Origin: Corallochytrium limacisporum Hawaii
Taxonomy: Eukaryota > Protista > Pluriformea
NCBI GenBank assembly: GCA_002811645.1
Contig: PDIP01000009.1
Coordinates: forward strand, 68,214-132,213
DNA length: 64,000 nucleotides
Direction of reading: 5' to 3'
A program made the position numbers and the translations under genes. The first letter of the stretch is position 1. Every line of letters starts with the position of its first letter. Below, piece by piece: positions 27,056-63,817 of this stretch. A model generated the notes under the pieces. That model ran no database searches and was not told the DNA's origin. It worked only from the letters and a program-made list of their open reading frames with translations.

Positions 27056-27058
<3 letters not shown>

Positions 27059-27116
<58 letters not shown>
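27059..27116. repeat. (CT)29 microsatellite, followed by (GA)n/(GT)n/poly-G at about 27149-27190
   Basis: Directly visible. Confidence 0.95.
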
Positions 27117-27119
<3 letters not shown>

Positions 27120-27809
27120 CGCCGCGGGTCCCCCCCCGGGGGGTCAACGAGAGAGAGAGTGTGTGTGTGTGTGTGGGGGGGGGGGTGGGGCAGGCAAGAA
27201 AAAAATAAAACAGGGAGAGAGGAAGAACCTTTGACCAGCAGCCAGCAAAGTACACAGGAATTGACGGTAACAAAGGAGAAAAAAAATGAGGAAAATCTCA
27301 GGGTGCGGTTTTCATGCAAAGGGCCCAAAAATGGCGCACCCTCGCGTGTAATCCGCACGCCAACGGGGAGAGAGAGAGACTTTTAAGGGAGAGCGGGAGA
27401 AAACCCGAAAAGAAAATAGTAAAGAAAGTACGATAGTACCCAAGAAAAAAAGACCTGGGGCCATGTTCTTAGGCGTAACACACGAATGGCCAAGGCCAAC
27501 AAAGGAAAAAAATGTAGAGAGCGGGGGCATACCGAAGAACCGCAAAAATGAGAGCAAGGATAGAGACACACACACACACAGAGACACAGAGACATGGCGT
27601 TTGGGTGGGGGGGAGAGCGGCCGAATTCGCGTGGCCTTCGTCACCCCTCGCGTCCTTCGAGCTGAGCCAGGAATGCCATCGCCCGGAGCAACTTCCAAGA
27701 AATCCTGCCAATCTGTCTCTCTTTTTTTTTATTGTATGTATGTCTTGCAACCAACCATCCCCGTCTGCCAGTCCCCTTCCCTCATTTCTATTTTAAAACG
27801 TCTTTTAAC

Positions 27810-27905
27810 TCTCTGACGCTCTATCTATCTCTATCTATCCTCTCCCTCTCTCTCTCTATCTCTCTCTCGCTCTCTCTCTTTCTGTGTCCCTCTCTCTCTC
27901 TCTGT
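27810..27905. repeat. Degenerate CT/CTAT-rich microsatellite
   Basis: Directly visible. Confidence 0.85.
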
Positions 27906-30900: not shown

Positions 30901-30928
30901 TGTCCGGACAGTGGTCGATGTGCTGCGT

Positions 30929-31074
<146 letters not shown>

Positions 31075-34000
31075 GCCCCCTCTTCCCTTACTCCCAACCC
31101 GCCCCAAACTCTCATTCCGTGTCAATGGGAAGAAAAGAGAGAGGAGGAAGAGGGGGGGGGGGGGCGAGAGGGCTCTTGTCTTTCAAAAAAGTCCCGCGTG
31201 TGTATGTGTGTTGTGTCTCGCTTTAAACGACCATGTGCCCATCCGTGTGGGTCCTGCAGCACGCGTTTCCACAGTATTTTTCATATCGAATCCGTCTTCT
31301 GGTCAGATGATGGACACACTCTTAGGAATCCCGGGCACGGCACCCACACACACACACACGCTCGCTCGCTCGCTCTCTGCTCAGTCAGAGTCTCTCTTGC
31401 TCTCGGTGTCTTTCTGTGGTCTCTGGCGCCCAGCTGACCAGCACGGGAGGATAAAACGGCAAACATTCTTTCGGTGTTCCAATATGAATGCCATTTGTCC
31501 GGAACCGATTAAACCAGGGCAATAAAAGAAGAAAATATGAAACAAACACACAGAGGTAAAATTATCTTGACAAGGGGGGTTAAATGGGAAAAACAAATAG
31601 GAAAAGAATGAAAAAATGAAATAGGCCCCTTCGCTGCAACTCCCCTTCTTTTTTTATTCTTTCCTTTTCTTTTCTTTTTCCTTTACACCAAACCCCGCAT
31701 TTTCTCTCCTGCGGCTGTGTCCCTCTCTCCACCCCCCAAAAAAAATGGAAAAGGAGGAGGGGGTTAAATTTCTCCACCCTTCCTTTCCCCGAAAGCCCTC
31801 ACTATCGAAGCCGGGCAGGTTGGAGACAAAGAGAGAGAGAGAGAGACAGAGAGGGAGAGGCAGGCAGGCAACGGGACAGAGGGAGTCTACAGCCAAAAAG
31901 AAAAAAAAAATAAGAACAAGGAAAACTGTGTTCCAACGAACGGACTGCACCGCCGGGCCAGGTGGAGCTTGGGAGGTGGTTGGTTGGTCGGCTGCCCGGA
32001 TGATTCACTGGCGGACAATTAGTGATATAATGTAATATCTTAGCATTCCGGATATACCAAACTGCCTGGGTGAGAAAAAGGGGGGGGGGGGAGTAGGTAA
32101 CAAAAGGAGGAGAGAAAGGGGTAAAGGTGGGGGAGGGGAGAGGGGGAGAATTATGTCCGTGGGTAGCAGCGCGCTCCTCCACAAGCGCCTTTGGCCTGTG
32201 TGGCCCATAACTCATATAAGTGGGTAACGGATCGGTTGCTTTGTGAGTGTGACCACGGCTCGCATCATGTTGGATCTGCGGTCTGGGACGTATTCTTCGG
32301 TAACGTATTCCATGCCAAGTTGAAGAAGGAAGACTGTGTTACCACACTAGCATCAGGCAGGAATGGGGAGGGCTTCCGATCCATGTTCGGATTGAGATCG
32401 CCTGCATGGTTCCTGTCATCTCCAACCAGGGCCTTATCGACGGATACCCTTTTTTTTTCTCTTTTGTCATTCATCGCCGTGGGGCCCCTGCAGCTGATCT
32501 TCTACTGAGTGGCCATCATGCGTGCTCACCACGGTCTGTAGTCTGGCCCGTTGGGCCCGTTGGGACCAAAGTCTCCGACAGTCCGGTTGAACTCGTCCCT
32601 ATCTTCAAGCCCGACTCAGAGCATATTGCTACGAGACGGGTTGTCTAAGCATGACTGACACAGTGTCACCTGCGTGGAGCTCTGACGTCTCCATGTACTA
32701 CTGCCGACTTGTTTGATTTAATTGTTAGATGCCCACATCAAAGAACAAAGAACGGGGGTCTAGCCACAGCAAACTCGTGGACAAGGGCAGTAGGTCCCCC
32801 CCGGGCTAAAACAGACATCGTCAGCATCCAAGGCTCACCTGCCTGGCAGGCAGAACTGAACGGTGAGCAAGAGGGGTGCGGCGATCGACCATAATCCTCA
32901 GCGACGGCGAGACCTGGCGAGTTCCCGATTCGGAAAATGCTCATCAGGCCCCGGCATCGCACCCAAGATCAGCCTGAAATGCGAAAGCTGTCCGCACCCT
33001 GGGGACGCAAAACGGCACTCCTTCCGTCTTGGTCATCGGTCAAAAACCCCGCCGATTTGAATTTCTTTGGGTCCCTTTACATCTCCTTATTGTGGGTATT
33101 GATCGAACCGGAAGACAAGACAAATCTAGAAACTACCCAGGACAGGAGGATAAAAGGACGATGTGATAAACTGGAAAGGAAGGCATCAGGGCACCGCGCA
33201 ATGTAGAAGGAAAGGACAGCCCGATGTTAACCAGCAAAATAAAAAATACCCCACAATGGTGGCCAAACGCGGGTCTTGAAAAAGCAAAATAGAAAAATGG
33301 TTCTGCAAGTGTGGTCGTGTAGCAAACAGGGACACCCCGCCTCAGTTGGGTGGGTGTGAATTTAGGTATTTTCTCGGTTGGTTCAGTATGGCCACCGGAT
33401 CTTTTGCTGAGCCGGGTGGTGCATTTCCTGGGGTCCTCCTCGCCATCCTACCTAATTCCTTCTGCCTTTACCCACGAGAGAAGTACACGACTACAGTGGC
33501 GTTTTCGGGTCGGCGAATTTCGGTAGTATTTATATAGAATGAATGGTTGCCAAAATATTGACAGAGTAAAATACAATCACACACACACACAGAGACACAC
33601 ACACAATATATATATATAATACATACCTATGTATCAAAGCAAGAAAAAAATTGAACTATAGTAAAAGTACGAGATGTGTAGAGAGGGGAAGAGGGCGGCC
33701 CGCGGGCGGCGGCCGCGCACACAAAGTGGAGAGCGCAAGAGAGCAGCAAATCCCTAAGGTCTTGGGGAAGGAAGGAAGGACGGGAGGGAGGGGTTGGGGG
33801 CATCTCAAAACAAGAAAAAGCTGGACATTTCTTCCCTCTTTCGGTAGGCGGCTTGGGCAAAACGAGCTGACAACCACGGTCCCGACGACCGTGTCTCTCT
33901 CTCTGTGTATGTGTGTGTGTATGTGTGTGTGTCGGGTATCCTATTCGTCTCTTGTGTGTTTGTGTGACACAAGGCTGTCTATGATGTCTGCCTCCTGGTG

Positions 34001-35836: not shown

Positions 35837-37775
35837 TTTGGTTGTGTACTTTGTGGACTAGTTTTCACTTGTCCTTGAAGTACGTTAAAGTAGCAGTCTA
35901 CAATATGTGACGACACTTTGTCAGGTGTACGAACAAATATACTTAAAGTCTCCTGTTGCACCGAATCAATTTCCTGATGCCCAGGGTTTTTGGTCGAGTC
36001 CGGTTCACTACCAAAGGAGAGATTTCTGTCGTCTCAGTTTTCGCATGATCTAATAATGCACAAGTACAAGATTAGTGCTGCCACATTGTCTGCAAATTTT
36101 CATGAAGTACCAACAGTGCCCTGGGAAACGTCAAGCATGTCCACCGTACAACACCCTGAACCCTTTCAGACACCAGAGGACGGTGCCCGGCCAGCAGTAA
36201 GCAAGCCCCATGAATGGGTCCCCCCCTCCCCCCGCCTCCTTTTCAGCCTTATCTCTCACTCTCCCAGTATGGACTCTCTACCGCACTCCGAACCCGCCCG
36301 GACACGGACCGGAAATGGAACGACCCGACGAGGAGCCAGGAGGTAGCGGGTGCGCGGGGAGGGGTGGGCAGTCAAAGCAAGACTCCGTTTTGCCAGAGAA
36401 ATGGACGGGCAAAAAAAAAAAGAAAGAGTCTGCCGGGGTGGTTGTGACCCCCGGAAAAAGGGGGGGGGGTTAGTGGGCGATTCCGCCTTTGCCGCTTCGC
36501 CCTTTCAAACACTGCGAAACGAGGGCGTGTAGGAAGAGGAAGACATGAGAGCTCCTGAGAACTTTAGATGGGATCTGACCTATCCCATGTCCCGGACCAA
36601 TACAGTGCCCTTTTGATGCACTATCCCTGGCACTTCGCCATGCAAACAAACGGAGTCCATCCGGAATACACTGGGACGAAGAACGCGTCACATGCATGCC
36701 ATCATCTCACCCACGTACACGCAGGGAACACATGAGATAGTGAGAGAGAGAGCGATGGACAGATATGTCACAAAACGTCAGGTATCGCGCGGGTCCGAGT
36801 TAACATGTTCATCCGCACTACCAACAAGCATCGCGAACTGTATTGTATCTGCCATGGAGTAAGCAGTGGCACTGATGGTAGGTGATGGTGGTGACGGAAT
36901 AAAAACATTCGGCTTGTGTGCGGGGTCTGGGTTTTTGCTTCCTGATCAGCAAATCTCACTCTCGCCAGTCAATTCACAGAGGCGCGCTGGAGTTTGGGGC
37001 GGGTGTGGGCACGGGTTTGCACTCTGGGCTCTTTCGTTGGCACTTCCTCCCTCTTCCCTTTCTGACGTTGCGGGAGTGCTACGTAGCTCTCGCTCCCGGC
37101 CCCCACGCATCCGCCGCAAGAGAGAAAACAGAAACTGCCACTTTTTCCCACCGTCTCTGTCCCCGCGTCCCCCCTTCGCATCGCTTTTTCGCTAATTTGC
37201 GCACAACCGGGGGGCAAGTGAGTGGGAGAGGTAACGGAGACTGGTTGGCGGGCAGAAGGCAGAATGGAAAAAAGTGGGGGGGGGGGAGGGCGGTGAGGTG
37301 TTGCCGCCATAGTGAGAGCTCAGCGAAGCATTTGGAATTCCTGTAGATTGCTAAGGTCTCCTTTTTGTTTTTATTCCCCCTCAACCCCACTCTTTTTCCT
37401 TTCAGCTCGTCTCCTGGATTGGTGGATTAAAATGGACTCCTGATCCCATGGAGAGAATAGGAGCCCAGGTTTTTCGTTGCTTTTAATAGGCCCCTAATTT
37501 CTGGCTTTTTGTCCCTGCCGTTTCTCCTCCCCCTTTGTCTTTCGAGTTGGTGGTGCGGCACCTGCCTTGTGTGTTTGTTTTGTGTGGGGGGGGGGTTGTG
37601 CCCGACCAAAACTTAGATAGCGCGACGGGGCAGGGGATCCTTGTTGCATCCTTGTTCCGGAGCTATGGGTCAGCAGGGTTTGGGAAGGTATTTTGCTTTC
37701 TGCATACTCCTCTCGAGTAATCTTCCTTAAGGATCTCGGAAGAAACTCCAAATTTGAATTGAAAATTCAGAAAGC

Positions 37776-38039
37776 ATGGGACTCACCGCAGACCAGCTCC
37801 AGGCTGTAATTGAGGAAAGGTTCAAACCGGTGCATCTCACCGTGGAAGATGTGTCTGGAGGGTGCGGATCTAATTTTGAAGTGACCATTGTCAGTGAAAT
37901 GTTTGAGGGAAAGAAGCTCCTGCAAAAGCACAAGCTGGTGAATTCTCTGCTGGCAGATGAGATAGCACAAATGCATGCGTTTAAGCAGAACCCGTACACT
38001 CCAGAGGAGTGGGCCAAGAAGCAGGGTGAGAGCAGCTGA
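37776..38039 (+). CDS. BOLA2: BolA-like protein 2 (Fra2-type Fe-S/glutaredoxin partner)
   Basis: VEDVSGGCGSNFEVTIVSEMFEGKKLLQKHKLVN..EIAQMHAF..TPEEW. Confidence 0.93.
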   Translation: MGLTADQLQAVIEERFKPVHLTVEDVSGGCGSNFEVTIVSEMFEGKKLLQKHKLVNSLLADEIAQMHAFKQNPYTPEEWAKKQGESS

Positions 38040-40693
38040 ACTCAGCATGTAACAGACTAATATAAAGAACATATGACAAATACATTTAGAATAACTGGAT
38101 GTGTATATTGGAATCCATGACATTCATGCGGAAGTAAGACTGGAGACGACGAAAGTTCTTTTGAGATTCCGAACAATTGCAGACGTCAACTAGGCGACCA
38201 CAATGCGAATGCACAAATTGCCCGCTCGATTTTCAGAATACTCCGTATAATCATTGAGGGGAGAGAATCTCCCCTCAAAGACTCTCTTCTATCCACAATA
38301 TATCAGTTGGCATATCTGTACTAATTGCTTTCAACAATGTTCTTATGGTGTGTTATACGACTCCTTTCAACCCAGGGCGCACACAGTCTACACACACACA
38401 CACACAGAGGGACATGCCTCGAAGAATTCCGCCTCCGGTTGGAAGGTTTCTGCATACACAAGATAACACGAAGATCAAAGGAAATTGGATAAGGATCTAC
38501 TATCAACCTCAACTGAACCAAGCAGTTTCCAACATCTACCGTTGTCGACCCATCCCGTCATCGCCACTCTACAAGACATCTTGTTGCTTTCTGCGGCGAT
38601 CAGAGACTGTTCCTGCTTTCGTTTTCTCTTCTCTGTTGGAAATGTAGTGATGATGCTCTCGAATGTGCTACCGCTTTACTCTGGTAGCCCACAGAAAAAC
38701 TGTGTGTACCGGAGCGTTAAACCCTGCGCGCCCCCCCTGCCTTGGTCCGCTTGGAAGAAAGAGACCCGCCCTCCCCCCACAATTCTTCCCACTCAGCTTG
38801 GAGTGCCGGGGGTGCGGGTTGCTAAGGCCCGCGCTTCTATATTGATCATACTGAGTCAATATCACACGAGCGCCAGCGCTTTGCGGCCCTATTCCCAAAC
38901 ACGAGAGGGGTGGGGGAGCGGGGGCTGCAGCAATGCATGGGTTCTCGTCGACATTGTCTGGGGGTTTAAGCAGCACTTTACAGGGCTGAGGTCGCCTACT
39001 GGTGTTGCGCTGTTCATTATCACTTGCCTTCCAAACCTGACCTGCCGTTTTTGGTACGTGGTAGGCTACACAGTGGAGGCATGGCTGGTGCATATTTAAA
39101 GACTTGTTCTTTGTTCTCGTTGTTCCATAGTCACCCATCGCTGACCACCACGGGTGTTGAAGAAGAGCATGGAGACGAACGCCATTGACTTTGCGCACAA
39201 GACAATGTTGCAGGTGGGCTAATCTGCTCACTTGCACCTGCAAGGGCAAGGAAGAGTGCCAGCGATGCTAGATAGTAAACTCAGGGAAAAGGAACGACAG
39301 GATTCCACCACGTTTATCGTTGCTGTTTTAGTGAAGGGGGAGTCGCTGCATCCATGTCATGGGGTCCTCTTCTTTACAAGTCGCGCTTCAGCTAGCCATG
39401 TACACAATCGTGTGGCTTGAACATTGCAAAAATGGGGTGGCAGGGCCTCCGAAGACCCATCCACCAAGTACCAGAATGAAAAGAAACAGAGAGTCCCAAC
39501 CCACGCCCGAGTACGTCGAAGCTTTTCCTATTCCATTCCTTCCCATAGGGTCCAACTCAAATCAAACACACAGCACCGTCCCCAATGACACGCATCCAAC
39601 TCGACCTCCAGTGCCATCCAATGCAAATGGAAAGTTCGTTGCGTACGATATTCCCGAAATCAACGTTCGACTCTTTGTCCATGCAGGATTTACGTGGTTG
39701 CTGTTGCTTCACCCCACAACCTCCCAACACCGAAGTGCTCCCCCCTCACACCTCCCCCACCTTTTCCTTTCACTCACTCCCCCGTTTATATTACCCCAGC
39801 GCCCGACCCGCGGGAGCAGGGATGGCCCCCCTCCCCCGGCCTGTTACGGTGGAAACGGGGGCACACCGAAACGAAGGCAAGGGACACCCTTGGTGTGGCG
39901 GGGGAGGCGAGCGGAGGGGGGGGGTGGGAGTTTGGTCAACTTCGAGCAAGAAGGGAAGAAGAGACGCACTTTCTTACGCAGACTTGTGCTGCCGTCCGAT
40001 GTGCGCGGTCCTGCAACAACACAGGCGTGTTTTTGACCGACATTATTTCTTGTGTCTCTTCACTACATGGGACGACACGCTCAACAGATGAGGCTACCCT
40101 TGCTGTGGTGCATGCCAGTAGATCCGGAGGCATTGCGCCGCGGTTGTTTAGAAAGAGAGTATACGGATGGGGGGAAAGCAGGGAGGAGGCTTTTGTTTCA
40201 TTTGGCGTTTCCACAGAAAGTGACAAACGCTCTGGTCTGTGTGATTTCTGCTGGTCGTCTTGATCCGTGCTCAGTCGAGTAAAACAAGCAATATGTAGAA
40301 TAGAATGCTTCATCATCTAGGGTGAATACAACATTCCATTTTGTCGAGAACTAAATAGTTGAACTTCGAGCCTGGTATCGTGACCATTGGGCTGCGTATG
40401 GTTCTGAGTGGAAGCTACTTGAAGCCAACCTGCGCATCCATCGGGGAAAGAGGATCTCCATGTTTCTCCTTGTTCTTCCAGTGTGAGAAAATTAATCTGT
40501 GCGTGAGAGTGTGTATATGTGTACGGCTCGCCGACAAGGTACCATCACACACCTCGTCTCGGTTGCCAAAGTGAGTCAGAATCTAGTGTGTTACTTTTGC
40601 GGGAGTGTTTTCTACTAGATTTCGGGGAAGCAGAAACCAAAACAGTTCAGAAGGTTGCAATACAGGTAGGCAAAAGGCTGTCGATAATCAACG

Positions 40694-43832: not shown

Positions 43833-44390
43833 AGCGTCAATCGAGCCAGCCATCAGCGGTGCCAGTAGTACCTAGCAGTGACCCGCTTTTCGTGGTGGTG
43901 GTGGTGGGGGGGACGTGGTAGGGGGAAGGGGGAGGTTGTCGAGTACTAAAAGCCCGCAAGTCTCTCGGAAGGTCTAGCAACGCCGCACCTTCTGGTGCGG
44001 AGGCCTGGCCGAAAGCGGTACCGGCCAAGAACACGGCGTGCGCGGTAGTCCCTCTCGAACTTGTGGAAGGAAGGGCTGTGTGGCAGCTCTTGTCGTGCTT
44101 TTGGCCAGCACCCATGCCGTTTGTGTTGATTCCATTCTGACCATTCCCAAGTACCAGTGGTAGAGTCTTTTGTATATATTGTCGTGCTATCGTGGACTTT
44201 GTCGTCCCTTTCGTCACGCTCCTCACCGCTCTCGAGTTTGACCGCGTTGTAACTCTACACAGAAGGGGTCTCTTACACTTTGTCACTTGAGTGAGACACC
44301 AGCCGCTCCGTAGATCACCAACTGCTCTTCGGCTTCTGGTAAGGTCATCCAGCCACGCAGTGTCCCTCTTTGGTCGCCTCCGGCAATTTT
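43833..44390 (-). pseudogene. Chimeric degenerate duplicate of the neighbouring RWA-like gene (inverted) and LRR gene (direct)
   Basis: The reverse complement of 44007-44256 aligns to 44900-45132 with scattered substitutions and frameshifting indels. 44257-44331 aligns directly to 46648-46722. Shorter collinear matches flank both sides, so the outer limits are tentative. Confidence 0.85.
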
Positions 44391-44774
44391 AGCAAACACA
44401 CACATGCCCTCTCTCTCTTCTGTAGTTCACAAGGCCAATTTGTTTCAACTTGCGATGAAGGGGGGCGCACAAGCGGAGAAAATGAAGGTAACTCAATGAA
44501 CCAAAATGGGCGCAGCCTTGGGAGACCAAATACGGTTTCATGGGGGCCGCGGGCGGGGGAGGGGCCAGATCCCGTCCACGAACCCAATATTCAGCTTGGG
44601 ACTGCCAACATGTTGGCCACAACACTTTCTCTGCCAGGGAGCGCCTGTGAGAAAAGGTATTGGAATGAATCGGCGTTTTGTTAGGTAATGGATGGAAACA
44701 CAGGGTGAGACAGACGAACGGGGAACCTAGGCACCGAATCTTCATGGAGCGGTGGAAAGACTGACCAGTAAATC

Positions 44775-46361
44775 ATGTTGACCGCATTGCAAGCCGGAAC
44801 GCTTGTGTTCTGGCTCGTCTTTGAGGTCTATGGACTCTTAGAATACAACTCTATATTACACATCCTGTCCCGAATCGGTAGCAGAAAATGTTTCACCACA
44901 GAGTACGACGCGGTCAAACTCGAGAGCGGTGAGGAGGGTGACGAAAGGGCCGACAAAGACCACGATAGCAACGACGATATATACAAAGACTCTACTGGGA
45001 ATGGTCAGAATGGAATCAACACAAACGGCATGGGTGCTGGCCAAAAGGACGACAGAGCTGCCACACAGCCCTTCCACAAGTTCGAGAGGACTACCGCGCA
45101 TGCCGTGTTCTTGGCCGGTACCGCTTTCGGCCTCATAATTATTTATATGTACCTATGCGAAATTGCCGAAATCTGGCCTTCGGGAGAGCGTACGTACAAC
45201 CGTGACCAGTTCATATTCTTGGTTTTCGTAATTGGTATTGTCGCCGTTCTGACTGCCAAACGGGACCGCAAGGATATTATTCTCAACCGTGCGCAGACTG
45301 AAGAGTGGAAGGGATGGATGCAGATCCTCTTTGTCTTCTACCACTATTTCCGAGCTGCTGAAACATACAACTTCATCCGTGTGTTTATTGCAGCCTATGT
45401 ATTCATGACGGGCTTTGGAAATTTTAGTTACTTTTGGGTGCGGGAAGATTACAGTGTGCGGCGCATGATCAAGAGCCTGTTCCGTCTGAACTTTATGGTC
45501 ATCTTCGTCTGCATTGCCACGGAGAATGAGTACATGCTGTACTACATTTGTCCCATGCATACGTTCTGGTACCTCTATGTGCATGCCTTCTTTGCCATCA
45601 AGTCGAGCTGGAATAAGAACTCAAAGCTTATGGCAGTTAAGTTTGTGCTGGCACTGCTCTTTGTGGTGGTGATCTGGGAATCTCCAGGTCTGGTGGAGGT
45701 CCTGTTCTACCCGCTGAAGCCTATTCTTGGCTTCCAAGACTCCATGCATGAGTGGGCTTTCCGTTCTGGGTTGGACCGTTATGCACCATGGTTTGGTATG
45801 CTTTGTGCCTACAACTACCCACAGTACGAGGCCATGTTGCGAGGCTGGGAGAAGCCGGACAATCCCTTGGGTAAGGTGTACAAGATGATTAGTGTTGTAG
45901 TCTGCGTGATTGCCTTTTTGATCTGGCTGTTTGTGATCGAGCGGCGAGATAAGTTTGACTACAATTCTTTACATCCTTATACGAGCTGGATCCCCCTGGT
46001 TGTGTACATTCACCTGCGCAACGTGTCACAGGAAGCCCGCTACTACCACAGCGCTCTGCTCCGCTGGCTGGGTCGCATCACGCTGGAGACGTATCTGGGC
46101 CAACTTCACATTTATATGCAGGCCAACGCCAAAGAGCTTATTGTCTACATTCCCGATTACCCCCTGATGAACTTTGTGCTCAACTCGGCCATTTATATTT
46201 ACCTGAGCTACCGAGCGTTCCAAGCCACCAACACCATCAGTAACTACATTTTCCATCCGGACAACGACATGAAGTTCATTCTCACTCACTTGGGTGTACC
46301 GATTGCCTGCCTGTTTGCTGCACTCCCGCTTGGAACGATATTACTCAACCTTGGGACGTGA
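44775..46361 (+). CDS. Cas1p/RWA-type membrane O-acetyltransferase component (Cas1_AcylT domain only; unrelated to CRISPR Cas1)
   Basis: LNRAQTEEWKGWMQ, IRVFIAAYVFMTGFGNFSY, YYICPMHT, EWAFRSGLDRY, HPYTSWIP, WLGRITLETY; multi-pass membrane protein of 528 aa. Confidence 0.93.
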   Translation: MLTALQAGTLVFWLVFEVYGLLEYNSILHILSRIGSRKCFTTEYDAVKLESGEEGDERADKDHDSNDDIYKDSTGNGQNGINTNGMGAGQKDDRAATQPFHKFERTTAHAVFLAGTAFGLIIIYMYLCEIAEIWPSGERTYNRDQFIFLVFVIGIVAVLTAKRDRKDIILNRAQTEEWKGWMQILFVFYHYFRAAETYNFIRVFIAAYVFMTGFGNFSYFWVREDYSVRRMIKSLFRLNFMVIFVCIATENEYMLYYICPMHTFWYLYVHAFFAIKSSWNKNSKLMAVKFVLALLFVVVIWESPGLVEVLFYPLKPILGFQDSMHEWAFRSGLDRYAPWFGMLCAYNYPQYEAMLRGWEKPDNPLGKVYKMISVVVCVIAFLIWLFVIERRDKFDYNSLHPYTSWIPLVVYIHLRNVSQEARYYHSALLRWLGRITLETYLGQLHIYMQANAKELIVYIPDYPLMNFVLNSAIYIYLSYRAFQATNTISNYIFHPDNDMKFILTHLGVPIACLFAALPLGTILLNLGT

Positions 46362-46663
46362 CACGGACAATAGGGGCATATTGAAAAACGTTTAAAGTGA
46401 TTGGGATTTGGGGCAGAAGTAAGGCCTTTGCAGCATTGCTAGTTAACTCTCACAGGCACACAACCGCTTAGATATGCACGACTTGCTCCCGTGCATGCCA
46501 TCTAAAGTTGTACTCAATAGATAGAAATACGCCATGCAATCCACGCCTTGCCTTGCAGGGCCGTTGTATTCAATTTCTGTGACCTGAAAAGGATTTGTGG
46601 TTCCAAAGACATGCCAAACTGACTATGGGAGCTTAGTAGTCAAGCGCACACAGAAGGGGGCTC

Positions 46664-49600
46664 TTACAATTTGTCACTTGAGTGAGACACCAGCCGCTCC
46701 GTAGATCGCCATCTGCTCTTCGATGGACGTAACATCTCGTCCAGGTCATCTGACCACTTAACCTCTCCGACTGGTTCTGCCTCCTGACCAACGTAGCCAG
46801 CGTATATATCAACGGGCTCAGCCTCCTTGTCATTCAATGCGATGTCCTCAAGTTCTTGCTGCAGAACCTCGTCCTCATGGATTGATGTCGAACGGAGTCG
46901 CTCCATTTTGCCAGCATCAAGCACCTGCTCCATGAGCTTCGGTCTGCGATAGATACCTTCTTCTCCGAAGCTTGCATGCATGACACTCGCACTCGATGTC
47001 TCCAAGCGATACAGAATACGTGTGATACGGAAGATGACTTCGTGAACTGTTTCACAGGGAGGGAATTCAACCTCACGCGATGCTACATGAGCGTGTAGCT
47101 GGGTCCTTTCAGGTGAGTACCGCACAATGATGCGTTCGAGATCCCTCTTCTTTCTGACACTGATTGGCAGGTGTGCAGAACCCGTGCACATGATAACAAA
47201 CCGCCGCAGATCGGTGCTCCTGGTGGCGTCAGAAGTGAAGACCCGCTTCACTAGGTTCAGCATTTCATTGTCGGCATCATTGAATTCCTCAAAGTCAATA
47301 AATTCCAAAAGTCCGTGGCCATCGACATGCTGATCACCGCAACTTAGCAACATGACATCCAGTGTGTTGAGACTGTGCTCTTCTGCCAGCTTCATGAAGA
47401 TACCCTCGGAGTAGAACCCTTCGCGCAATGCGCGCATTTGCTGCGCCCGGCAGCGATACAAAGACTCCAACCATTTCTTTGTGAAGCGATCCAGGTTATG
47501 GGTCCCTTCCCGTCCTCGTCTAGGGGCACTGCTGGCTCTCGTATGACTGGCTGTTCCCCTAAGATTGCTATCCCCTCCTTCCTCCATGGATGACATCTCA
47601 AAAACGGGTAGAAGGTCCCGATTTACGCTGATTGATGACGCTGACAAAGGGTCAAACAAGCTGAAGTCTTCAAAGGACGGATTTTGGCCCAAGAAGTAGC
47701 GGTAGATCATCGGGGCCAAGGGAGCGGCAATGCAAACGTCGTAAATCATGGCATGGAGCAACAATGCACCAATCGTACGGAAATCGTCCAGGTTCTGGTT
47801 GTCTTCAGCAGGCAGATAGTATGTTGCCTTGCGCTCGAATAACCCATAGCGTGGGTCGACCATTTGTGTAAAGAACTTCTCAAGTACTCTGCCCATCTGT
47901 CCATCAGCATCGCGGTATCCAGTAATGCGGACAGGTATCTTCACCGATTTGACGTGCTGGAACGCAACGAGAAGTTGAGGTACCAATTCTTCACCGTCCA
48001 GTTCCACCAAAAGTTCTTCATTTTTACACCGCAGGTTCTGAAGACTCCGCCGTGCTTGGAAGATTCGCTCATCTGCAGTCTCCAGTGCAGTTACGAAGAC
48101 CTGAGTGTCCACATGAACCTCCCGAGGCAAGGAGAAGTAGGCAGAGTGCAGGACGTCGCTGACGCTGGACAGGCTGTTGTCGATACACACCTCCCGTAGT
48201 ACCTCCTTTGCGTTTTCATCAGTCAGTGCATTTAGGTCCTTCGGAACAGCCTGACAATACAAATCCTTTGTGAGTAGCTGGTACAGAATTAGCATGGCTC
48301 CACGAATGTCCTGCTGACGTCCTTCCTCAGGGTCAATGTCCTCTGCCTTGCCCAAATTTGTCAGCCTAGGAGATCCGTCCTTGTCCATCAGGACTTGATC
48401 CAAGAGCAATTTGCCGTGGAAGATGCCACGCGCGTGAAGGTATCCAAGGCCATTGAGAATGCACCGCACAATGCTACAGACCTTTTCAGAGTCCATGTCT
48501 CTGTCCCGCTCGACATACTCCCGCAACGTCCCTCCCTCGCAGTAGGGCATCTCAACATAGACGTAGTTGTCATCATAGAAGAATCCGTTGATGCCAACCA
48601 CATGAGGATGGCTGAACTGTCTGGGAAGCAGAATCTCACTCTGTGCTAGTTTTTTCTCATCACGCTTCAAGCGCTTGATGATGACAAGATGCTGCTCATC
48701 ATGAGACACATGCTTGCGCCGCATGAGGTAGATAGTCCGCCGGGGGTCCGCATTTGGTATCTGCTTGAGTTCCTCGTAGTCATCCACAATGTTTCTGGTA
48801 AGGTATGCACCACTGTTGATCAAATTGACCATATCCGGATCTTGACCTCGACTTCCGTGGGTCATTGCGCTGGCCTGTGCAGCCTTCTCTGGGTAGTGTA
48901 CGCCTCCCTCTGTGATGATCGTCGTGAGTACACAACGTCTCTGGTTCGTCACCTGTTTGAGCTGTTGCTTCGCTTTAACTAGTTTCTGCCTTGCTGCGGA
49001 GGCCTCGGCATCGTTCTCAATCAAATCATCGTGCATCTGCTGCTTCCATCCCCGACGATTCAGCAGAGAATTGAAGCTCATTTCAAGGCTTGTGATTGAC
49101 TTGCGCTCCTTCTCAATCTGAGTGCCGAGTTGTTGCACTTCCTTAAACCGAGTTGAAAGAGTCTTCTGGAGCTCGGACCTGCCATTGATCTGCCGATATT
49201 TCATTCTCCACAGGTCATACAAAGTGATGAGGCCGATGACAATCAATTCAATCATGCCCCCGTTGTCCATCACGGGCTTCACACTGCGGAGCAGAACAAC
49301 GGACTCGTCCTGGGCTTCTCGTAGGCGGTAGTGCATTACCGGAGTGTCTAGCGCTTCCCCGAGGAACTTCACTTGATTCGAAGGACTTAACCAGTTGACG
49401 TATCCATACAAAATATGGCAGGATTCGTACAGAGAAGACAAAAGACCACGCTTCTCTCTTACAGAAATCATGAGTTGGCTCAGCTCTTCCAGGTGATCTT
49501 CGAGGATAGTGGTGTAGTCCTTCAGAGCCCTGTTTCGTTCCTTCAGTACTTTGTCAAGCTTCCCCCCGGCTTGTAGCCCGTCCCGTTGAACCAGATCTCC

Positions 49601-51175
49601 GACAGCGGAAAACGCATTATGAGTCCTTTGTTCTGCCACGTTTTGCTCCTCCTGCACTTTCTCAGTGATGTGGTAAAGCGAACCCATAGTCTGACGATAC
49701 TGCGAGAATAGGGCACGAATGGAATTGATTTGCGCTTTGAGAATGAGCGTTGGTCCATCTGATACCAAAGCATTTGAATAGCGCATTAGCATGTGCTCAG
49801 TATCTTCAGTTTCGCGCAGCTCTTCCATGATTCTGTGGTCCTCCTGTTCCCGTATTTCCTCCTTGGCAGATTCGAGCTCTGATTCTGTGTGCTGCGTATG
49901 TTCCGCATGCTCCGATTCGGATGGCATACTTTGCCTGCTCATCTCCATGTCCGGTTGAGGATCGGAGTCCGCGGCCAAGGACGAGTCAACCAACCGGCCA
50001 TCTTCAGTGGAGCGGAAGCTGGCACGTCTAATTCGGTCTGCATGTGATTGACTGTGATGAGTGCCGCCAGCAAGATTGTTCAACAGCTCTTCAGTTGCAT
50101 CCTGTAGGAGCTGCGCCAAATACTTCATGACAGTTGTCGGTCCCTTCTTAACCTTCGGTGCAATGTCTGCACTCCAGGGATTGCCATTCAAATGCAATGT
50201 GGTCAATTTACTACACCGAGCTAGGGTGTACGGCAGATCGGTAAGGTTATTATGATTCACCGCGAGCAGCACCAAAGAACGGAGATTACCAATTTCGTCA
50301 GGTAGCTCCTGCAGCTGATTGTGCGCCAAATTAAGCATGCTTAAGTTCTCGAGATTCCCCAGTTCTACGGGAACTTTCGTTAGATTGTTGCGCTTCAAAT
50401 GCAAGACTGTGAGTGTCTGCATTGATCCAATGCTGTCGTCAATGACACCGCCCAGCTCATTCCGGCCCAAACCAAGGACAGAAATAGATGGGAAATTCAA
50501 AGCCCCTGACTCGATCACGCTAGCCCCATTGCCTTCAATCCACAAGTTCTGAAGGCTTGTCAAACGACTCATCCATGCTGGAATTGTAGTGATGCTGTTG
50601 TCATCCAGCCACAACTCCTGTAGCTCATTCAAATTTCCCAGTCCCTCAGGTAGACTTTCCAGGTCATTGTCATACAGCCATACAATGCGCAGCTCAACAA
50701 GATTACCCATGGACTCCGGCAATGTTGTCAAATTATTTCTGTGCAACCAAAGCTCACGAAGGTTAACGAGCTGTCCAATGTTTTCGGGCAGTTTTGTGAG
50801 CTGGTTCTGGCCAAGTCCAAGGACTGTTAATTCCGTGAGGTCACATACTTCGTCTGGTAACTCCTTGAGAGCGTTCTCGGACAATGAAAGAATTTGCAGA
50901 TTCTTCAAGAAACCTAATTCTTTTGGCAGCCGTTCCAGGCGGTTGTGAACCACTGAAATTTTTTCTAATTGTGTTGCGGCCTCTAAGAATTCCTTGGGGA
51001 TCTCTGTGATGTAGTTTCGGTTGAAAGCAAACGAGATTATGCGACTTGCAATGGAGCCACTGCCGCTACCACGTACAGTCAACTCAACTGGGATACCTCG
51101 TAATGAGAGCTCCGATAAATCCAGAGTACCGCCGACGTCTGCGGCTTTCAGCCGGTACTGGACCTCTGCGTCCAT
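46664..51175 (-). CDS. LRR - coiled-coil - pseudokinase - HECT-like multidomain protein (1503 aa)
   Basis: About 13 LxxLxLxxNxL repeats (about 51130-50180); heptad-rich centre; kinase fold (VIIK, HPHVV, EMPYCEGGTL, LGYLHARGIFHGK) at about 48785-48135; HECT-like region (FFTQMVDPRYGLF, FRTIGALL, EDFSLFDP, FVIMCTGSAHLP, HAHVAS..FPP) at about 47925-47010. Confidence 0.85.
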   Translation of the reverse strand: MDAEVQYRLKAADVGGTLDLSELSLRGIPVELTVRGSGSGSIASRIISFAFNRNYITEIPKEFLEAATQLEKISVVHNRLERLPKELGFLKNLQILSLSENALKELPDEVCDLTELTVLGLGQNQLTKLPENIGQLVNLRELWLHRNNLTTLPESMGNLVELRIVWLYDNDLESLPEGLGNLNELQELWLDDNSITTIPAWMSRLTSLQNLWIEGNGASVIESGALNFPSISVLGLGRNELGGVIDDSIGSMQTLTVLHLKRNNLTKVPVELGNLENLSMLNLAHNQLQELPDEIGNLRSLVLLAVNHNNLTDLPYTLARCSKLTTLHLNGNPWSADIAPKVKKGPTTVMKYLAQLLQDATEELLNNLAGGTHHSQSHADRIRRASFRSTEDGRLVDSSLAADSDPQPDMEMSRQSMPSESEHAEHTQHTESELESAKEEIREQEDHRIMEELRETEDTEHMLMRYSNALVSDGPTLILKAQINSIRALFSQYRQTMGSLYHITEKVQEEQNVAEQRTHNAFSAVGDLVQRDGLQAGGKLDKVLKERNRALKDYTTILEDHLEELSQLMISVREKRGLLSSLYESCHILYGYVNWLSPSNQVKFLGEALDTPVMHYRLREAQDESVVLLRSVKPVMDNGGMIELIVIGLITLYDLWRMKYRQINGRSELQKTLSTRFKEVQQLGTQIEKERKSITSLEMSFNSLLNRRGWKQQMHDDLIENDAEASAARQKLVKAKQQLKQVTNQRRCVLTTIITEGGVHYPEKAAQASAMTHGSRGQDPDMVNLINSGAYLTRNIVDDYEELKQIPNADPRRTIYLMRRKHVSHDEQHLVIIKRLKRDEKKLAQSEILLPRQFSHPHVVGINGFFYDDNYVYVEMPYCEGGTLREYVERDRDMDSEKVCSIVRCILNGLGYLHARGIFHGKLLLDQVLMDKDGSPRLTNLGKAEDIDPEEGRQQDIRGAMLILYQLLTKDLYCQAVPKDLNALTDENAKEVLREVCIDNSLSSVSDVLHSAYFSLPREVHVDTQVFVTALETADERIFQARRSLQNLRCKNEELLVELDGEELVPQLLVAFQHVKSVKIPVRITGYRDADGQMGRVLEKFFTQMVDPRYGLFERKATYYLPAEDNQNLDDFRTIGALLLHAMIYDVCIAAPLAPMIYRYFLGQNPSFEDFSLFDPLSASSISVNRDLLPVFEMSSMEEGGDSNLRGTASHTRASSAPRRGREGTHNLDRFTKKWLESLYRCRAQQMRALREGFYSEGIFMKLAEEHSLNTLDVMLLSCGDQHVDGHGLLEFIDFEEFNDADNEMLNLVKRVFTSDATRSTDLRRFVIMCTGSAHLPISVRKKRDLERIIVRYSPERTQLHAHVASREVEFPPCETVHEVIFRITRILYRLETSSASVMHASFGEEGIYRRPKLMEQVLDAGKMERLRSTSIHEDEVLQQELEDIALNDKEAEPVDIYAGYVGQEAEPVGEVKWSDDLDEMLRPSKSRWRSTERLVSHSSDKL

Positions 51176-52498
51176 GGTAACAAATCTTCCGAACTATGGG
51201 CCAGTACAAGATATTTCATGCGCTGGTTTTGTTCCAGCATATGTGCATCTAAGCGTGTGTGCAGCTAAATACCAATGTAGACGACATCTATGAATGCCTG
51301 TCGATTCATAAGGCTCGGTACGATCCCTGTGTTTCCCATTGTGACGTTTGTTCCCTTTCCGTTCTCGTTCGACCGGATGGTGGTGAATGCTATATCCTCT
51401 GGGAGGCCCCTGCAATCGCCCCCTGCTTAACCCCCCCTTTCTATCCACTGTCTCTGCGTAAGCTCTCATTTTCGTTTTCTCTCATAAGCTACCGTATGTT
51501 GAATGTTAGTCTACAGGGTTTCAGAGTCTTGTTTGTATTCCTTTTTTGGTTGCTCCACAGTCGTCCCAGAGAAAATTCACGAGCGGTAGCGAAACACGGC
51601 ACAAACGTTATATATTACCCGCTGCATCCCGTGCCAAAATGTAGATGAGCTGCTGCTACCGGCAGCGCACCAGACGCGCGCACCGCAACCGCTACTACGA
51701 CTCAGAAACCCTCCGCCTTCTCCATCTGAAAGAACCGCTCTCTTACCAAAGAACTTCCCCGCCGGCAGAGCTAAGAACGCAAAGCCACAGCAATGAGCAT
51801 CTGCACAATCTCCCCCGTCCGGACCCACAATATCGGCTCCCCGCCACCCTAACCACTTCCGCGATACGAACAGCGCTTCGGTAATATATATAAATCACCG
51901 ACTTTACTCACTGTTACACCCTGGTAGTTATGCTCGCACTGGAATAGTAAGCATTGTCGGCTTCTGCTGAGATTGCAAATATCTCTACTGCTCTACTGGT
52001 TTCTATAGTTTACGCATTACTGGATTGTACGTGCACACATCAAAATGGGAGTCTATTTTCTCTTGATCTACGAAAACCCCGAATAATACGAATACGACCA
52101 ATGTCACACAAATAGTATTGGCTTGAGCGTAAACGGCCTCTCGGAGTTGCCAGCAACGAACACGGACCAAGGCTGACGAACTGTGATAATCATCCAAAAT
52201 CGGGGGTCCAAAGACTAAGACCAAGCCGGGGTAGCGAAAAAAGGTGGCAGACGGAGCTGTGTAGCCAAGCCGTTCCGTGGTCTGAGACCCAGGAAATAGC
52301 TCTCTCACGCTGGCACTCCGCGGAGGGTAAATTGGGGAACCTTTTGGCCTTGACGAGACTGCGAATAACATCGAATATAGCGGAAGATAATAGAAGGAAA
52401 AAGCCCTAATTGTCACACCTGTTCCGCAATAGTTGCTTTCCAGGTATCTTAAGCAGACGACTGAAGGGTATGACAGTGTCAATGTCAAAGTTTCCAAC

Positions 52499-62353: not shown

Positions 62354-63817
62354 ATGCTCAGTACCCTGTATTGGCTGCTGTTGGTTCTGTTGGACTGCCT
62401 CCAACTGTATACGCGGGCAGCGTTTGCCGTTTTGGCACGACGGTTCTATGTATACTCAGCACCTTCAGGCCATGTCACGCACTTGAGCAGACCACCGTTG
62501 GCCTTCATCTGCCGGGATCGTAACTATATGACTCAAGTGATTCAGAACAAGAACAGCAACAAAGGCTTATTGGTTACACGAGTTGTCCATGGGGATCTAG
62601 AGGATAATCGTGGTCTGGTCTCCGCAATCAATCAGCTCAAACTGGAAACCCACACGGGTGATACCATCAATGTCATCGTCAAGAGTCACAGTGAAGGCCT
62701 AGAGAGTTCATACCGGGCGCTGACCATCGGGCAGTGGCGAGAGGCCCACTTTCTCAGGCACCTGATGGACCACAAACAAGATGAAACGTCCCATAACATT
62801 GTCGAGGCAACGCAGGAGACCAGTCTCAGGGCCCTAGTCAGTCCATTCAAATTGTACACCCCACGTATTTTCTTTGCCGGTGCCCAATCGTTTACTGGCG
62901 ACTACGTTATTATTAGTGAATTGGTTGAACCACGCGTAGGCATGAATCTATGCTTGGGCAACCAAATCTGGGGATTGCCGGACGGTTTCCGCAATCCTTT
63001 CTCTCTTGGTAACCGTGGGGCGTGTGTGGCCATGGGTGCTCTCTGTGGAAAAATGCATAGGCCGTTCTTGAATGATCCCCGCCTGGCAGAGGATCGGCCC
63101 GAACTGCGGTTCCTACGCGCGCATCAGTGGTATCTCGGTGCCAACCGGTTGCGCTGGGAGTCCGCAGCCTTTGCCATCCGTCGTGCGTGGCTTCGCTGCA
63201 AACACCAGATGGGAACCGATGGTGTGCAATGGAATTCTGAGCTTACTTTGCTTCTCGATGCGGTAATGCGAGACAGCTCATGGGAGGCATTGCAGCGTTT
63301 GATCAACCATCGGGACCGCGATGCCAGTGATCGCTCGTTTGACTTTGTTCTAAGCCACGGTGACTTCCACGGATCCAATTGCATCCTGCGCTACGATTCC
63401 GGCCATGCAAAACCGATTTCCCAGCCAGGACAGGCTCGCTTGATCATGGCTGACTGGAGCGAGATCGGGTTGGCCCACCCGAGCTACGATCTTGCCCAGT
63501 TTTTGATCTCGGATGTCACACCACAGCTGCGCAGACAGGTGCTTGATGATGTGGCGCAAGCTTACGCCAATGAGTTACAGAGCGAGCTCTGGACTGCGGA
63601 CACTGTTAAAGAACAGCTGGCAGAGCGTGGTGTCGAGCGCTGGCTGGCTTTGATTCCCTTCCTCATGAGTTTCACCAACATTCCTGTGGAACTGCGTCAG
63701 TATTTCCATGATCAGGTGCACTCATTCTGTTCGGATCTTGGTGTGTACAGTGGGCGATACGGCCCCTACTTGCTGACCTCGATTCCCTCACTTCCGCCCT
63801 TCCTTACGTCCCTGTAA
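62354..63817 (+). CDS. APH/choline/ecdysteroid-kinase-like (EcKL) small-molecule phosphotransferase
   Basis: Brenner-type motif LSHGDFHGSN, ADWSEIGL.HPSYDLAQFL, N-lobe IVK..REAHF; hydrophobic N-terminus. Confidence 0.8.
   Translation: MLSTLYWLLLVLLDCLQLYTRAAFAVLARRFYVYSAPSGHVTHLSRPPLAFICRDRNYMTQVIQNKNSNKGLLVTRVVHGDLEDNRGLVSAINQLKLETHTGDTINVIVKSHSEGLESSYRALTIGQWREAHFLRHLMDHKQDETSHNIVEATQETSLRALVSPFKLYTPRIFFAGAQSFTGDYVIISELVEPRVGMNLCLGNQIWGLPDGFRNPFSLGNRGACVAMGALCGKMHRPFLNDPRLAEDRPELRFLRAHQWYLGANRLRWESAAFAIRRAWLRCKHQMGTDGVQWNSELTLLLDAVMRDSSWEALQRLINHRDRDASDRSFDFVLSHGDFHGSNCILRYDSGHAKPISQPGQARLIMADWSEIGLAHPSYDLAQFLISDVTPQLRRQVLDDVAQAYANELQSELWTADTVKEQLAERGVERWLALIPFLMSFTNIPVELRQYFHDQVHSFCSDLGVYSGRYGPYLLTSIPSLPPFLTSL

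What the first reader, a model, noticed from the sequence alone, without database searches (positions are those of the whole stretch)
46664..51175. LRR-coiled-coil protein with both a pseudokinase and a pseudo-HECT domain
The architecture LRR (about 13 repeats), acidic linker, coiled coil, kinase fold, HECT fold is not one I recognise from characterised proteins. The kinase has no GxGxxG loop, HRD reads HGK (48419-48411), the catalytic Asn position is Gln, DFG reads NLG and there is no APE; only the beta-3 Lys and alpha-C Glu remain. In the HECT-like domain the N- and C-lobe motifs are recognisable, but the catalytic (A/S)HTC reads AHVA (Ala codon 47083-47081) and a Cys sits in FPPC where LPxY is usual. 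The ORF is intact over 1503 codons, which suggests a maintained double pseudo-enzyme. It may be a sensor, scaffold or decoy (ligand sensing by LRR, oligomerisation by coiled coil, E2/ubiquitin or effector trapping), reminiscent of innate-immune receptors with integrated decoys.
Basis: partly seen in the sequence, partly recalled or inferred. Interest (0 to 1): 0.75.

Follow-up and report, generated by a model that had tools for sequence, protein, structure and literature searches.

The report
Doubly dead LRR kinase-HECT fusion
An intact gene of an unnamed eukaryote joins leucine-rich repeats to a kinase-like and a ubiquitin-ligase-like domain that have both lost their catalytic residues; it is a relative of the Leishmania kinase-ligase TKUL and likely works as a non-enzymatic binding scaffold, so it is an unusual variant of a known protist family and not a new kind of protein.

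Summary
Window 51175-46664 (-) is an intact 1503-codon ORF: LRRs, acidic linker, helical region, kinase fold, HECT fold.

The architecture is not new. It descends from a eukaryote-wide repeat-helical-kinase-HECT family: 31 of 149 listed hits, including Leishmania TKUL/HECT12 and LRR-bearing Anaeramoeba proteins. Kinase, HECT and helical region each tie it to this family.

No relative has GxGxxG (0 of 32), and the PE of APE is kept. The real losses are the catalytic Asp, Asn, Lys and DFG Asp, the activation segment (11 residues against 28-106), and the HECT cysteine; a 100-residue tail follows the usually near-terminal Phe. The FPPC cysteine sits at the Tyr of LPxY.

A second data set has the same motifs and an open frame; pN/pS is 0.29, weak evidence. 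HGK matches human MLKL, where that Lys aids metal-free ATP binding.

Best reading: a non-catalytic adaptor or switch; partners unknown. The scan noted doubly dead relatives on other DNA (unchecked). New variant of a known kind.

The parts
46664..51175 (-). Single uninterrupted ORF, 1503 aa
   Evidence: one contig of run X2 spans 44721-51210 with no joint
50171..51124 (-). LRR solenoid, about 13 repeats of 23 aa (residues ~18-335)
   Evidence: Pfam, regex; 35% identity over 277 aa to the LRRs of Anaeramoeba P0043, which may be generic LRR similarity
49766..50098 (-). Acidic linker, likely disordered (residues ~360-470; 24% Asp+Glu)
48887..49768 (-). Helical, coiled-coil-like region (residues ~470-763) with family-conserved Arg547 and Pro762
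   Evidence: both columns at least 90% invariant in alignment A2; 24.4 bits on a family profile built without the query, 0 of 300 heptad shuffles as high
48131..48781 (-). Pseudokinase (residues ~799-1015): Lys834, Glu847, His920, Pro949-Glu950 and Asp956 kept; Asp to Lys922, Lys to Leu924, Asn to Gln927, DFG to NLG; activation segment deleted
   Evidence: fold Z 22.2, rmsd 2.4, 210 aligned to PLK4 9o63
48410..48418 (-). HGK in place of HRD (His920-Gly921-Lys922), the same triplet as human MLKL
   Evidence: PMC4718504 and PMC6013482 passages
46961..48103 (-). Pseudo-HECT domain (residues ~1025-1405)
   Evidence: Pfam; model pLDDT 82.1 overall; Z 27.6, rmsd 3.8, 311 aligned to WWP2 HECT 4y07
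47501..47617 (-). Low-confidence, Ser/Gly/Pro/Thr-rich stretch (residues 1187-1225) where the E2-binding subdomain hairpin would lie (placement from my own knowledge of HECT structure)
   Evidence: pLDDT under 50 at model residues 418-456; 41% S/G/P/T
47081..47083 (-). Ala1365 at the position of the HECT catalytic Cys
   Evidence: Cys in 28 of 32 relatives
47054..47056 (-). Cys1374, aligned to the Tyr of the LPxY motif and not to the catalytic position
46664..46963 (-). Acidic C-terminal extension of about 100 aa after Phe1403, which aligns with the family's near-terminal Phe
   Evidence: 129 residues after the LPxY column against 18-27 in 31 of 32 relatives; Phe in 27 of 32

Best explanation
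This is an intact gene of the TKUL-like kinase-HECT lineage that has lost the catalytic residues of both enzyme domains and likely works as a non-enzymatic adaptor, with the LRRs predicted to bind a partner and the two dead domains likely kept as a docking and switching unit. Shown: intact ORF, domain order, homology to the family in three separate regions, and loss of the catalytic residues. Predicted: both domains still fold. Inferred: no phosphotransfer and no ubiquitin thioester (about 0.85). Inferred: the kinase fold may bind ATP without metal through Lys834 and Lys922, as human MLKL does (about 0.35), and so act as a conformational switch on the adjacent HECT fold, re-using the kinase-to-HECT coupling reported for TKUL. 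Untested: oligomerisation through the helical region, and what the LRRs and the HECT surface bind.
For: Family: 31 of 149 non-self listed hits carry kinase plus HECT. The best PDB sequence hit of the kinase is 9gmp_A, E 1.2e-15, whose name and length match a 285-aa member of the Leishmania HECT12 cluster; HECT12 is TKUL. The kinase groups with the 31 family rows against 41 other kinases, SH-aLRT 97. The HECT falls on the family side against 16 NEDD4/HUWE1/HERC-type rows, SH-aLRT 99. The helical region matches the family profile. Dead sites; the HECT C-terminal end is part of the active site (PMC13196369) and C-terminal fusions were not seen in a eukaryote-wide survey (PMC3673628). Maintained: 39 of 79 family-conserved columns are kept, mostly structural ones by my reading; the model has 308 of 641 residues at pLDDT 90 or more; a second data set shows 6 synonymous and 6 nonsynonymous differences and no break in the frame. 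ATP pocket: Lys834, Glu847, gatekeeper Met876 and Leu929 match the family consensus; Lys331 of human MLKL's HGK contributes to ATP binding.
Against: No partner, location or phenotype is known, and no orthologue was found, so there is no cross-species test of which surfaces are conserved. The pN/pS test is weak: 12 sites, p 0.035 one-sided with no transition/transversion correction, and the ratio (0.29) is higher than in two neighbours (0.07, 0.10). The query is the longest branch in the HECT and joint trees (2.5-2.6) and the trees are quick ones. The helical match was not significant with HMMER's composition correction on. The good model depended on an alignment of relatives; the single-sequence model failed (pLDDT 33). 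Ile815 and Ile832 are bulkier than the usual Val and Ala/Val above the adenine (Ile in 1 and 5 of 32 relatives), which could hinder ATP binding. The E2-binding region looks degraded, so E2 trapping is doubtful.
Confidence: 0.5

Rival explanations
1. It is the inactive regulatory partner of an active kinase-HECT paralogue in the same cell. It would pair with the active enzyme through the shared helical region, lend its LRRs as a substrate receptor, or dampen the enzyme.
For: The helical region is homologous across the family. Several genomes hold more than one member: Anaeramoeba ignava P0043 and P0073, Cymbomonas P0014, P0053 and P0080. In A. ignava one has a Cys-less HECT and the other a degenerate kinase. 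An inactive paralogue regulating an active one is a common pseudoenzyme role (own knowledge; UEV1 with UBC2 in PMC7647121).
Against: No paralogue is known in this organism: none in the window, and no genome is held.
Confidence: 0.22
2. It is a decoy or innate-immune sensor: the LRRs or the dead domains bait effectors that target kinases or HECT ligases.
For: LRR plus helical region plus dead enzyme domains is compatible with it. N-terminal modules vary widely in the family: TPR, ankyrin, RCC1, Kelch, LRR, beta-helix, zinc finger. HGK recalls MLKL.
Against: No NB-ARC, NACHT, TIR, Roc-COR or MLKL-type Pfam hit down to E 0.1. One copy in the window among housekeeping genes. No excess of nonsynonymous differences.
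Confidence: 0.1
3. It is a gene under relaxed selection, in which only part (for example the LRRs) still matters and the enzyme domains are decaying passengers.
For: Longest branch in the family trees; 40 of 79 family-conserved columns changed; pN/pS higher than in neighbours (the difference was not tested).
Against: The frame is open over 4.5 kb in two data sets. Many separate catalytic changes and a clean deletion accumulated while core positions and the predicted folds were kept, which needs long selection on the folds.
Confidence: 0.1
4. It keeps atypical activity: Cys1374 or another cysteine serves as a relocated nucleophile, or the kinase transfers phosphate without metal.
For: His1363, Lys834 and Glu847 are kept. 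Some predicted pseudoenzymes proved active, such as CASK and TRIB2 (PMC4718504 passages).
Against: Cys1374 is nine residues downstream, in the LPxY Tyr column. The 100-residue tail removes the terminal position of the Phe motif. The kinase lacks the catalytic Asp, Lys, Asn, DFG Asp and activation segment together.
Confidence: 0.08

Closest known systems
Leishmania mexicana TKUL / HECT12 (LmxM.34.4000; Fokkens et al. 2025 Mol Cell, PMID 40997810: not held, known to me only from passages in PMC13196369 and bioRxiv 10.64898/2026.05.08.723729 and its title in a reference list)
   Same: Repeat module, helical region, kinase directly followed by HECT; no GxGxxG; HG at the start of the catalytic loop; H-PE motif before the kinase; 24% identity over kinase and HECT. 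Best PDB sequence hit of the kinase is probably its kinase domain.
   Different: TKUL has TPRs, an intact HGDLKPSN loop, DFG, a 42-residue activation segment, the HECT Cys and a terminal Phe motif, and both activities are reported. The query has LRRs and none of these catalytic features.
Kinase-bearing HECT proteins of the GL-Bikonta group, class IV (Grau-Bove et al. 2013, PMC3673628; passages and section 16 read)
   Same: Divergent HECT with a protein kinase domain in Naegleria and Ectocarpus; a Naegleria protein (P0115) is among the relatives found here.
   Different: The passages read describe no LRR member and no doubly inactive member. I did not test whether my family set equals their GL-Bikonta clade.
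Anaeramoeba LRR-filamin-kinase-HECT proteins P0043 (KAJ5075310) and P0052 (KAJ6249568), uncharacterised
   Same: Similar 23-residue LRRs (35% and 34% identity), and a HECT without the catalytic Cys.
   Different: They carry two filamin repeats, keep an intact-looking kinase and have no C-terminal tail. Orthology is unresolved: a clade with the query is neither found nor rejected (p-AU 0.74).
Human MLKL pseudokinase (PMC4718504, PMC6013482; passages read)
   Same: HGK at the HRD position, beta-3 Lys and alpha-C Glu kept, metal-binding residues lost.
   Different: No four-helix-bundle hit in Pfam; the query's kinase groups with the kinase-HECT family (MLKL was not in that tree). I read the likeness as convergent.
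Human G2E3 (as described in PMC3673628 section 16)
   Same: A HECT domain described as non-functional, in the same loosely supported class IV.
   Different: G2E3 has active RING/PHD-like fingers and no kinase; the query has no second ligase domain in Pfam.

Membership tests
TKUL-like kinase-HECT lineage (by descent) | Kinase domain directly followed by a HECT domain | tested here: met
TKUL-like kinase-HECT lineage (by descent) | Kinase domain belongs to the family clade | tested here: met
   SH-aLRT 97 with 31 family rows against 41 of 121 other kinases; quick tree without mixture model
TKUL-like kinase-HECT lineage (by descent) | HECT domain belongs to the family clade | tested here: inconclusive
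   On the family side of a branch with SH-aLRT 99 against 16 outgroup rows, but the query is a long branch (2.54), the careful tree did not finish and the outgroup is narrow
TKUL-like kinase-HECT lineage (by descent) | Homologous helical region before the kinase | tested here: met
   24.4 bits, 0 of 300 heptad shuffles as high, with composition correction off; Arg547 and Pro762 at least 90% invariant; not significant with correction on
TKUL proper (dual-activity TPR-kinase-HECT enzyme) | N-terminal TPRs | tested here: not met
   LRRs, no TPR hit
TKUL proper (dual-activity TPR-kinase-HECT enzyme) | Catalytic Asp, Asn, DFG Asp and an activation segment | tested here: not met
Active HECT E3 ligase | HECT fold, both lobes | tested here: met
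   Z 27.6, rmsd 3.8, 311 aligned to 4y07; model built with an alignment of relatives
Active HECT E3 ligase | Catalytic Cys in the C-lobe | tested here: not met
   Ala1365
Active HECT E3 ligase | HECT at the C-terminus, Phe close to the end | tested here: not met
   100 residues follow Phe1403
Active HECT E3 ligase | Ubiquitin thioester formation | not testable with these tools
   needs biochemistry
Metal-independent ATP-binding pseudokinase (MLKL, STRAD type) | Beta-3 Lys kept, metal ligands lost, basic residue in the catalytic loop | tested here: met
   Lys834, Gln927, Asn940, Lys922; comparison
Metal-independent ATP-binding pseudokinase (MLKL, STRAD type) | Measured nucleotide binding without cation | not testable with these tools
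   needs thermal shift or calorimetry
NLR, ROCO or other LRR immune receptor | NB-ARC, NACHT or Roc-COR nucleotide-binding domain | tested here: not met
   no such Pfam hit down to E 0.1
NLR, ROCO or other LRR immune receptor | Paralogue expansion and diversifying selection | tested here: inconclusive
   one copy in the window, no genome, 12 variant sites only

The most novel reading that the evidence does not exclude
The kinase-HECT module of this old protist family has been turned, several times independently, into a wholly non-catalytic machine. In this member an MLKL-like HGK pseudokinase senses ATP without metal and switches a cysteine-less HECT fold that works as a ubiquitin- or ligase-binding platform, making it a nucleotide-gated pseudoligase receptor steered by LRRs.
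Probability: 0.15. Interest if true: 0.7.

Novelty: new variant of a known kind. Interest (0 to 1): 0.42.

Why it matters
TKUL is reported to couple its kinase to its HECT ligase allosterically. A member that keeps both folds but neither chemistry suggests the module has a function as a binding or conformational unit apart from catalysis. Non-catalytic HECT domains are little described: G2E3 is the one case named in the papers I read. Among the 32 relatives, 5 lack the kinase Asp and 4 lack the HECT Cys, and only one, a truncated Chlorokybus model, lacks both. So loss of one activity recurs (at least 5 and 4 changes on a poorly resolved tree, query included), and full-length loss of both is rare in this sample. 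The HGK match to MLKL gives one cheap, sharp test.

Tried and rejected
Word-index homologue searches found no orthologue. One search gave 4 weak kinase hits besides the query. One search covered only proteins of 3039-5000 aa and gave generic HECT ligases and one kinase. One search gave NEDD4-type ligases and general kinases and no new family member, so these searches are insensitive here.

The metagenome scan returned one locus, L001. It is a false hit on the opposite strand of a gene in a bacterial-looking contig.

The single-sequence fold failed (pLDDT 33). The homodimer prediction for residues 524-1015 gave no answer (score 0.00, alignment not used); it is no evidence either way.

The Atlas search with the helical region gave no usable hit. 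With kinase plus HECT its first hit was a 71-member eukaryotic kinase-HECT cluster, score 0.92, mostly Streptophyta; I did not examine its members.

The position inside the family is unresolved. Quick trees join the query to Cymbomonas P0014/P0053 with a long-branch warning (support 91, 44). Clades with Anaeramoeba P0043/P0052 or Chlorokybus P0123 are not rejected (p-AU 0.74 and 0.81), but there the constrained trees scored higher than the free one, so the free search was incomplete. The mixture-model test did not finish.

No holder is on record as RNA. Contigs of X1 and X2 cover mostly gene bodies and leave 51474-52424 and 26000-32509 uncovered, a weak hint that they are transcriptomes. X1 shows no difference from the window and may be its source.

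No whole genome is held, so paralogue counts and lineage were not determined. The TKUL paper is not held; it or its supplements may already survey homologues.

Literature searches listed no paper describing a doubly inactive kinase-HECT protein. I saw listings for these and read passages of six papers: PMC13196369, the bioRxiv preprint, PMC3673628, PMC7647121, and PMC4718504 and PMC6013482. The library lacks most subscription journals.

Rejected: lack of GxGxxG as a sign of inactivity; the FPPC Cys as the catalytic Cys; assembly error as the cause of the odd motifs (X2 shows no difference at those codons).


Full report
Observation. The minus-strand ORF 46664-51175 encodes 1503 residues without a stop. 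Its GC3 of 0.56 lies within the range of ten neighbouring ORFs (0.50-0.65). The window is eukaryotic and intron-poor: the neighbours are single long ORFs matching a UBA/KA1 kinase, a Cas1-type acyltransferase, an MFS transporter, a RAVE/WD40 protein, sestrin and PNPase. No genome is held and I did not determine the lineage. Pfam places LRRs at the N-terminus, a kinase at 823-951 and a HECT at 1102-1354, all above their cut-offs. A model of residues 770-1410 built on 33 aligned sequences has mean pLDDT 82.1. It matches HECT structures (WWP2 4y07: Z 27.6, rmsd 3.8, 311 aligned) and kinases (PLK4 9o63: Z 22.2, rmsd 2.4, 210 aligned). The single-sequence model failed, so the fold prediction leans on relatives; the Pfam scores do not.

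The family. The best PDB sequence hit of the kinase is 9gmp_A. Its name and length match a member of the cluster that holds Leishmania HECT12 / LmjF.35.4000, and a preprint passage equates HECT12 (LmxM.34.4000) with TKUL, a dual kinase and ubiquitin ligase whose ligase activity needs autophosphorylation. A review passage adds that a kinase inhibitor blocks its ligase allosterically. I could not read the TKUL paper itself. A phmmer search with residues 466-1430 gave 34,216 hits at E 0.001 or better and listed 150; 31 of the 149 non-self rows carry a HECT as well as a kinase. This is a similarity-ranked sample, not a census. Named members come from Leishmania, Phytomonas, Naegleria, Pharyngomonas, Anaeramoeba, Tieghemostelium, Soliformovum, Gloeochaete, Cymbomonas and Chlorokybus (23 of the 31 clusters were looked up). 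Their N-termini carry TPR, ankyrin, RCC1, Kelch, beta-helix, zinc-finger or LRR modules. Kinase-bearing HECTs were already noted in Naegleria and Ectocarpus in 2013 (PMC3673628).

Membership by descent. Three regions were tested apart. The kinase groups with 31 family rows against 41 of 121 other kinases, SH-aLRT 97. The HECT falls on the family side against 16 outgroup ligases, SH-aLRT 99, though on the longest branch and in a quick tree that left out two truncated rows. The helical region scores 24.4 bits on a profile built without the query, against a maximum of 15.7 in 300 heptad shuffles; with composition correction on it was not significant. The place within the family is unresolved.

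Which changes matter. I compared the query with 32 relatives, the 31 hits plus L. mexicana P0169, so Leishmania counts twice. GxGxxG is absent from all 32, so it says nothing about activity. P949-E950 and D956 are kept. The true losses are Asp to Lys922 (Asp in 27 of 32), Lys to Leu924 (26 of 32), Asn to Gln927 (28 of 32), Asp to Asn940 (28 of 32), an activation segment cut to 11 residues (28-106 in relatives) and the subdomain XI Arg. In the HECT, His1363 is kept, Ala1365 replaces the Cys (28 of 32), and Cys1374 sits in the LPxY Tyr column. Phe1403 aligns with the near-terminal Phe but is followed by 100 residues. The C-terminal end of a HECT is part of its active site and C-terminal fusions were not found in a eukaryote-wide survey. 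Residues 1187-1225, where I would place the E2-binding hairpin, are low-complexity and unmodelled. Five relatives lack the kinase Asp and four lack the Cys; only the truncated Chlorokybus model lacks both. The two Anaeramoeba LRR proteins have a Cys-less HECT and an intact-looking kinase.

Is it maintained? One contig of run X2 spans the whole ORF with no joint and 12 single-base differences, none at the altered motifs; X1 shows no difference and may be the window's source. Six differences are synonymous and six are not: pN/pS 0.29, one-sided p 0.035 without correction for transition bias, against 0.07 and 0.10 in two neighbours. This is weak evidence of purifying selection, perhaps relaxed. 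The stronger argument is that many catalytic changes accumulated while 39 of 79 conserved columns and the predicted folds were kept. The runs are only guessed to be RNA, so transcription is likely but not shown.

Mechanism. I infer a non-catalytic adaptor (0.5): the LRRs bind a partner, and the kinase and HECT folds serve as a coupled docking unit. HGK is the triplet of human MLKL, which binds ATP only without cations and whose HGK lysine contributes to binding. The query keeps Lys834, Glu847 and the hinge, so metal-free ATP binding is plausible (about 0.35); two Ile residues above the pocket argue mildly against it. Rivals are a regulatory partner of an active paralogue (0.22), a decoy or immune sensor (0.10), relaxed decay (0.10) and atypical activity (0.08). 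None of the binding steps is shown.

Novelty. It is a member of the kinase-HECT lineage by descent, but neither a TKUL nor an active HECT ligase by defining features. My searches listed no paper on a doubly inactive member, within a library that lacks most subscription journals. Earlier notes of this scan describe two doubly dead and two kinase-dead relatives on other DNA; I reached the TKUL reading before seeing them and did not check them. A search by sequence found no look-alike window. Verdict: new variant of a known kind, interest 0.42.

Noticed in passing
window 44007-44331: A chimeric relic: 44257-44331 is a 95% direct copy of this gene's 3' end (46648-46722, stop codon included), abutting a 90% inverted copy (44007-44256) of the neighbouring Cas1-acyltransferase coding stretch 44900-45132. 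On the minus strand both pieces read in mRNA sense. No contig of its own covers it.
   Followed up: partly
window 44721-51210: One X2 contig bridges the convergent Cas1-acyltransferase gene and this gene. In X1 the contig over 45486-47363 is deeper (172) than the rest of this gene (36), which might reflect overlapping 3' ends; contigs cannot show this.
   Followed up: no
P0043, P0052 (Anaeramoeba): LRR-filamin-kinase-HECT proteins with an intact-looking kinase and no HECT catalytic Cys.
   Followed up: partly
P0028, P0029, P0073, P0130: Family members with a degenerate kinase and an intact HECT Cys; P0029 groups with Leishmania TKUL and the Phytomonas protein.
   Followed up: partly
ESM Atlas cluster, rank 1: A 71-member kinase-plus-HECT cluster, mostly Streptophyta, auto-named MAP3K; my one search for such land-plant proteins listed no paper.
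   Followed up: no
window 26000-32500: A stretch with CT microsatellites (27059-27117, 27819-27907, 30933-31059); its two ORFs over 200 aa have no Pfam match.
   Followed up: partly
window 37716-38297: A short stretch covered by deep contigs in both runs (131 and 261) with no ORF of 200 aa or more: perhaps a small gene or an RNA.
   Followed up: no
window 62354-63817 (+): ORF of 487 aa with an ecdysteroid kinase-like (EcKL) domain.
   Followed up: no
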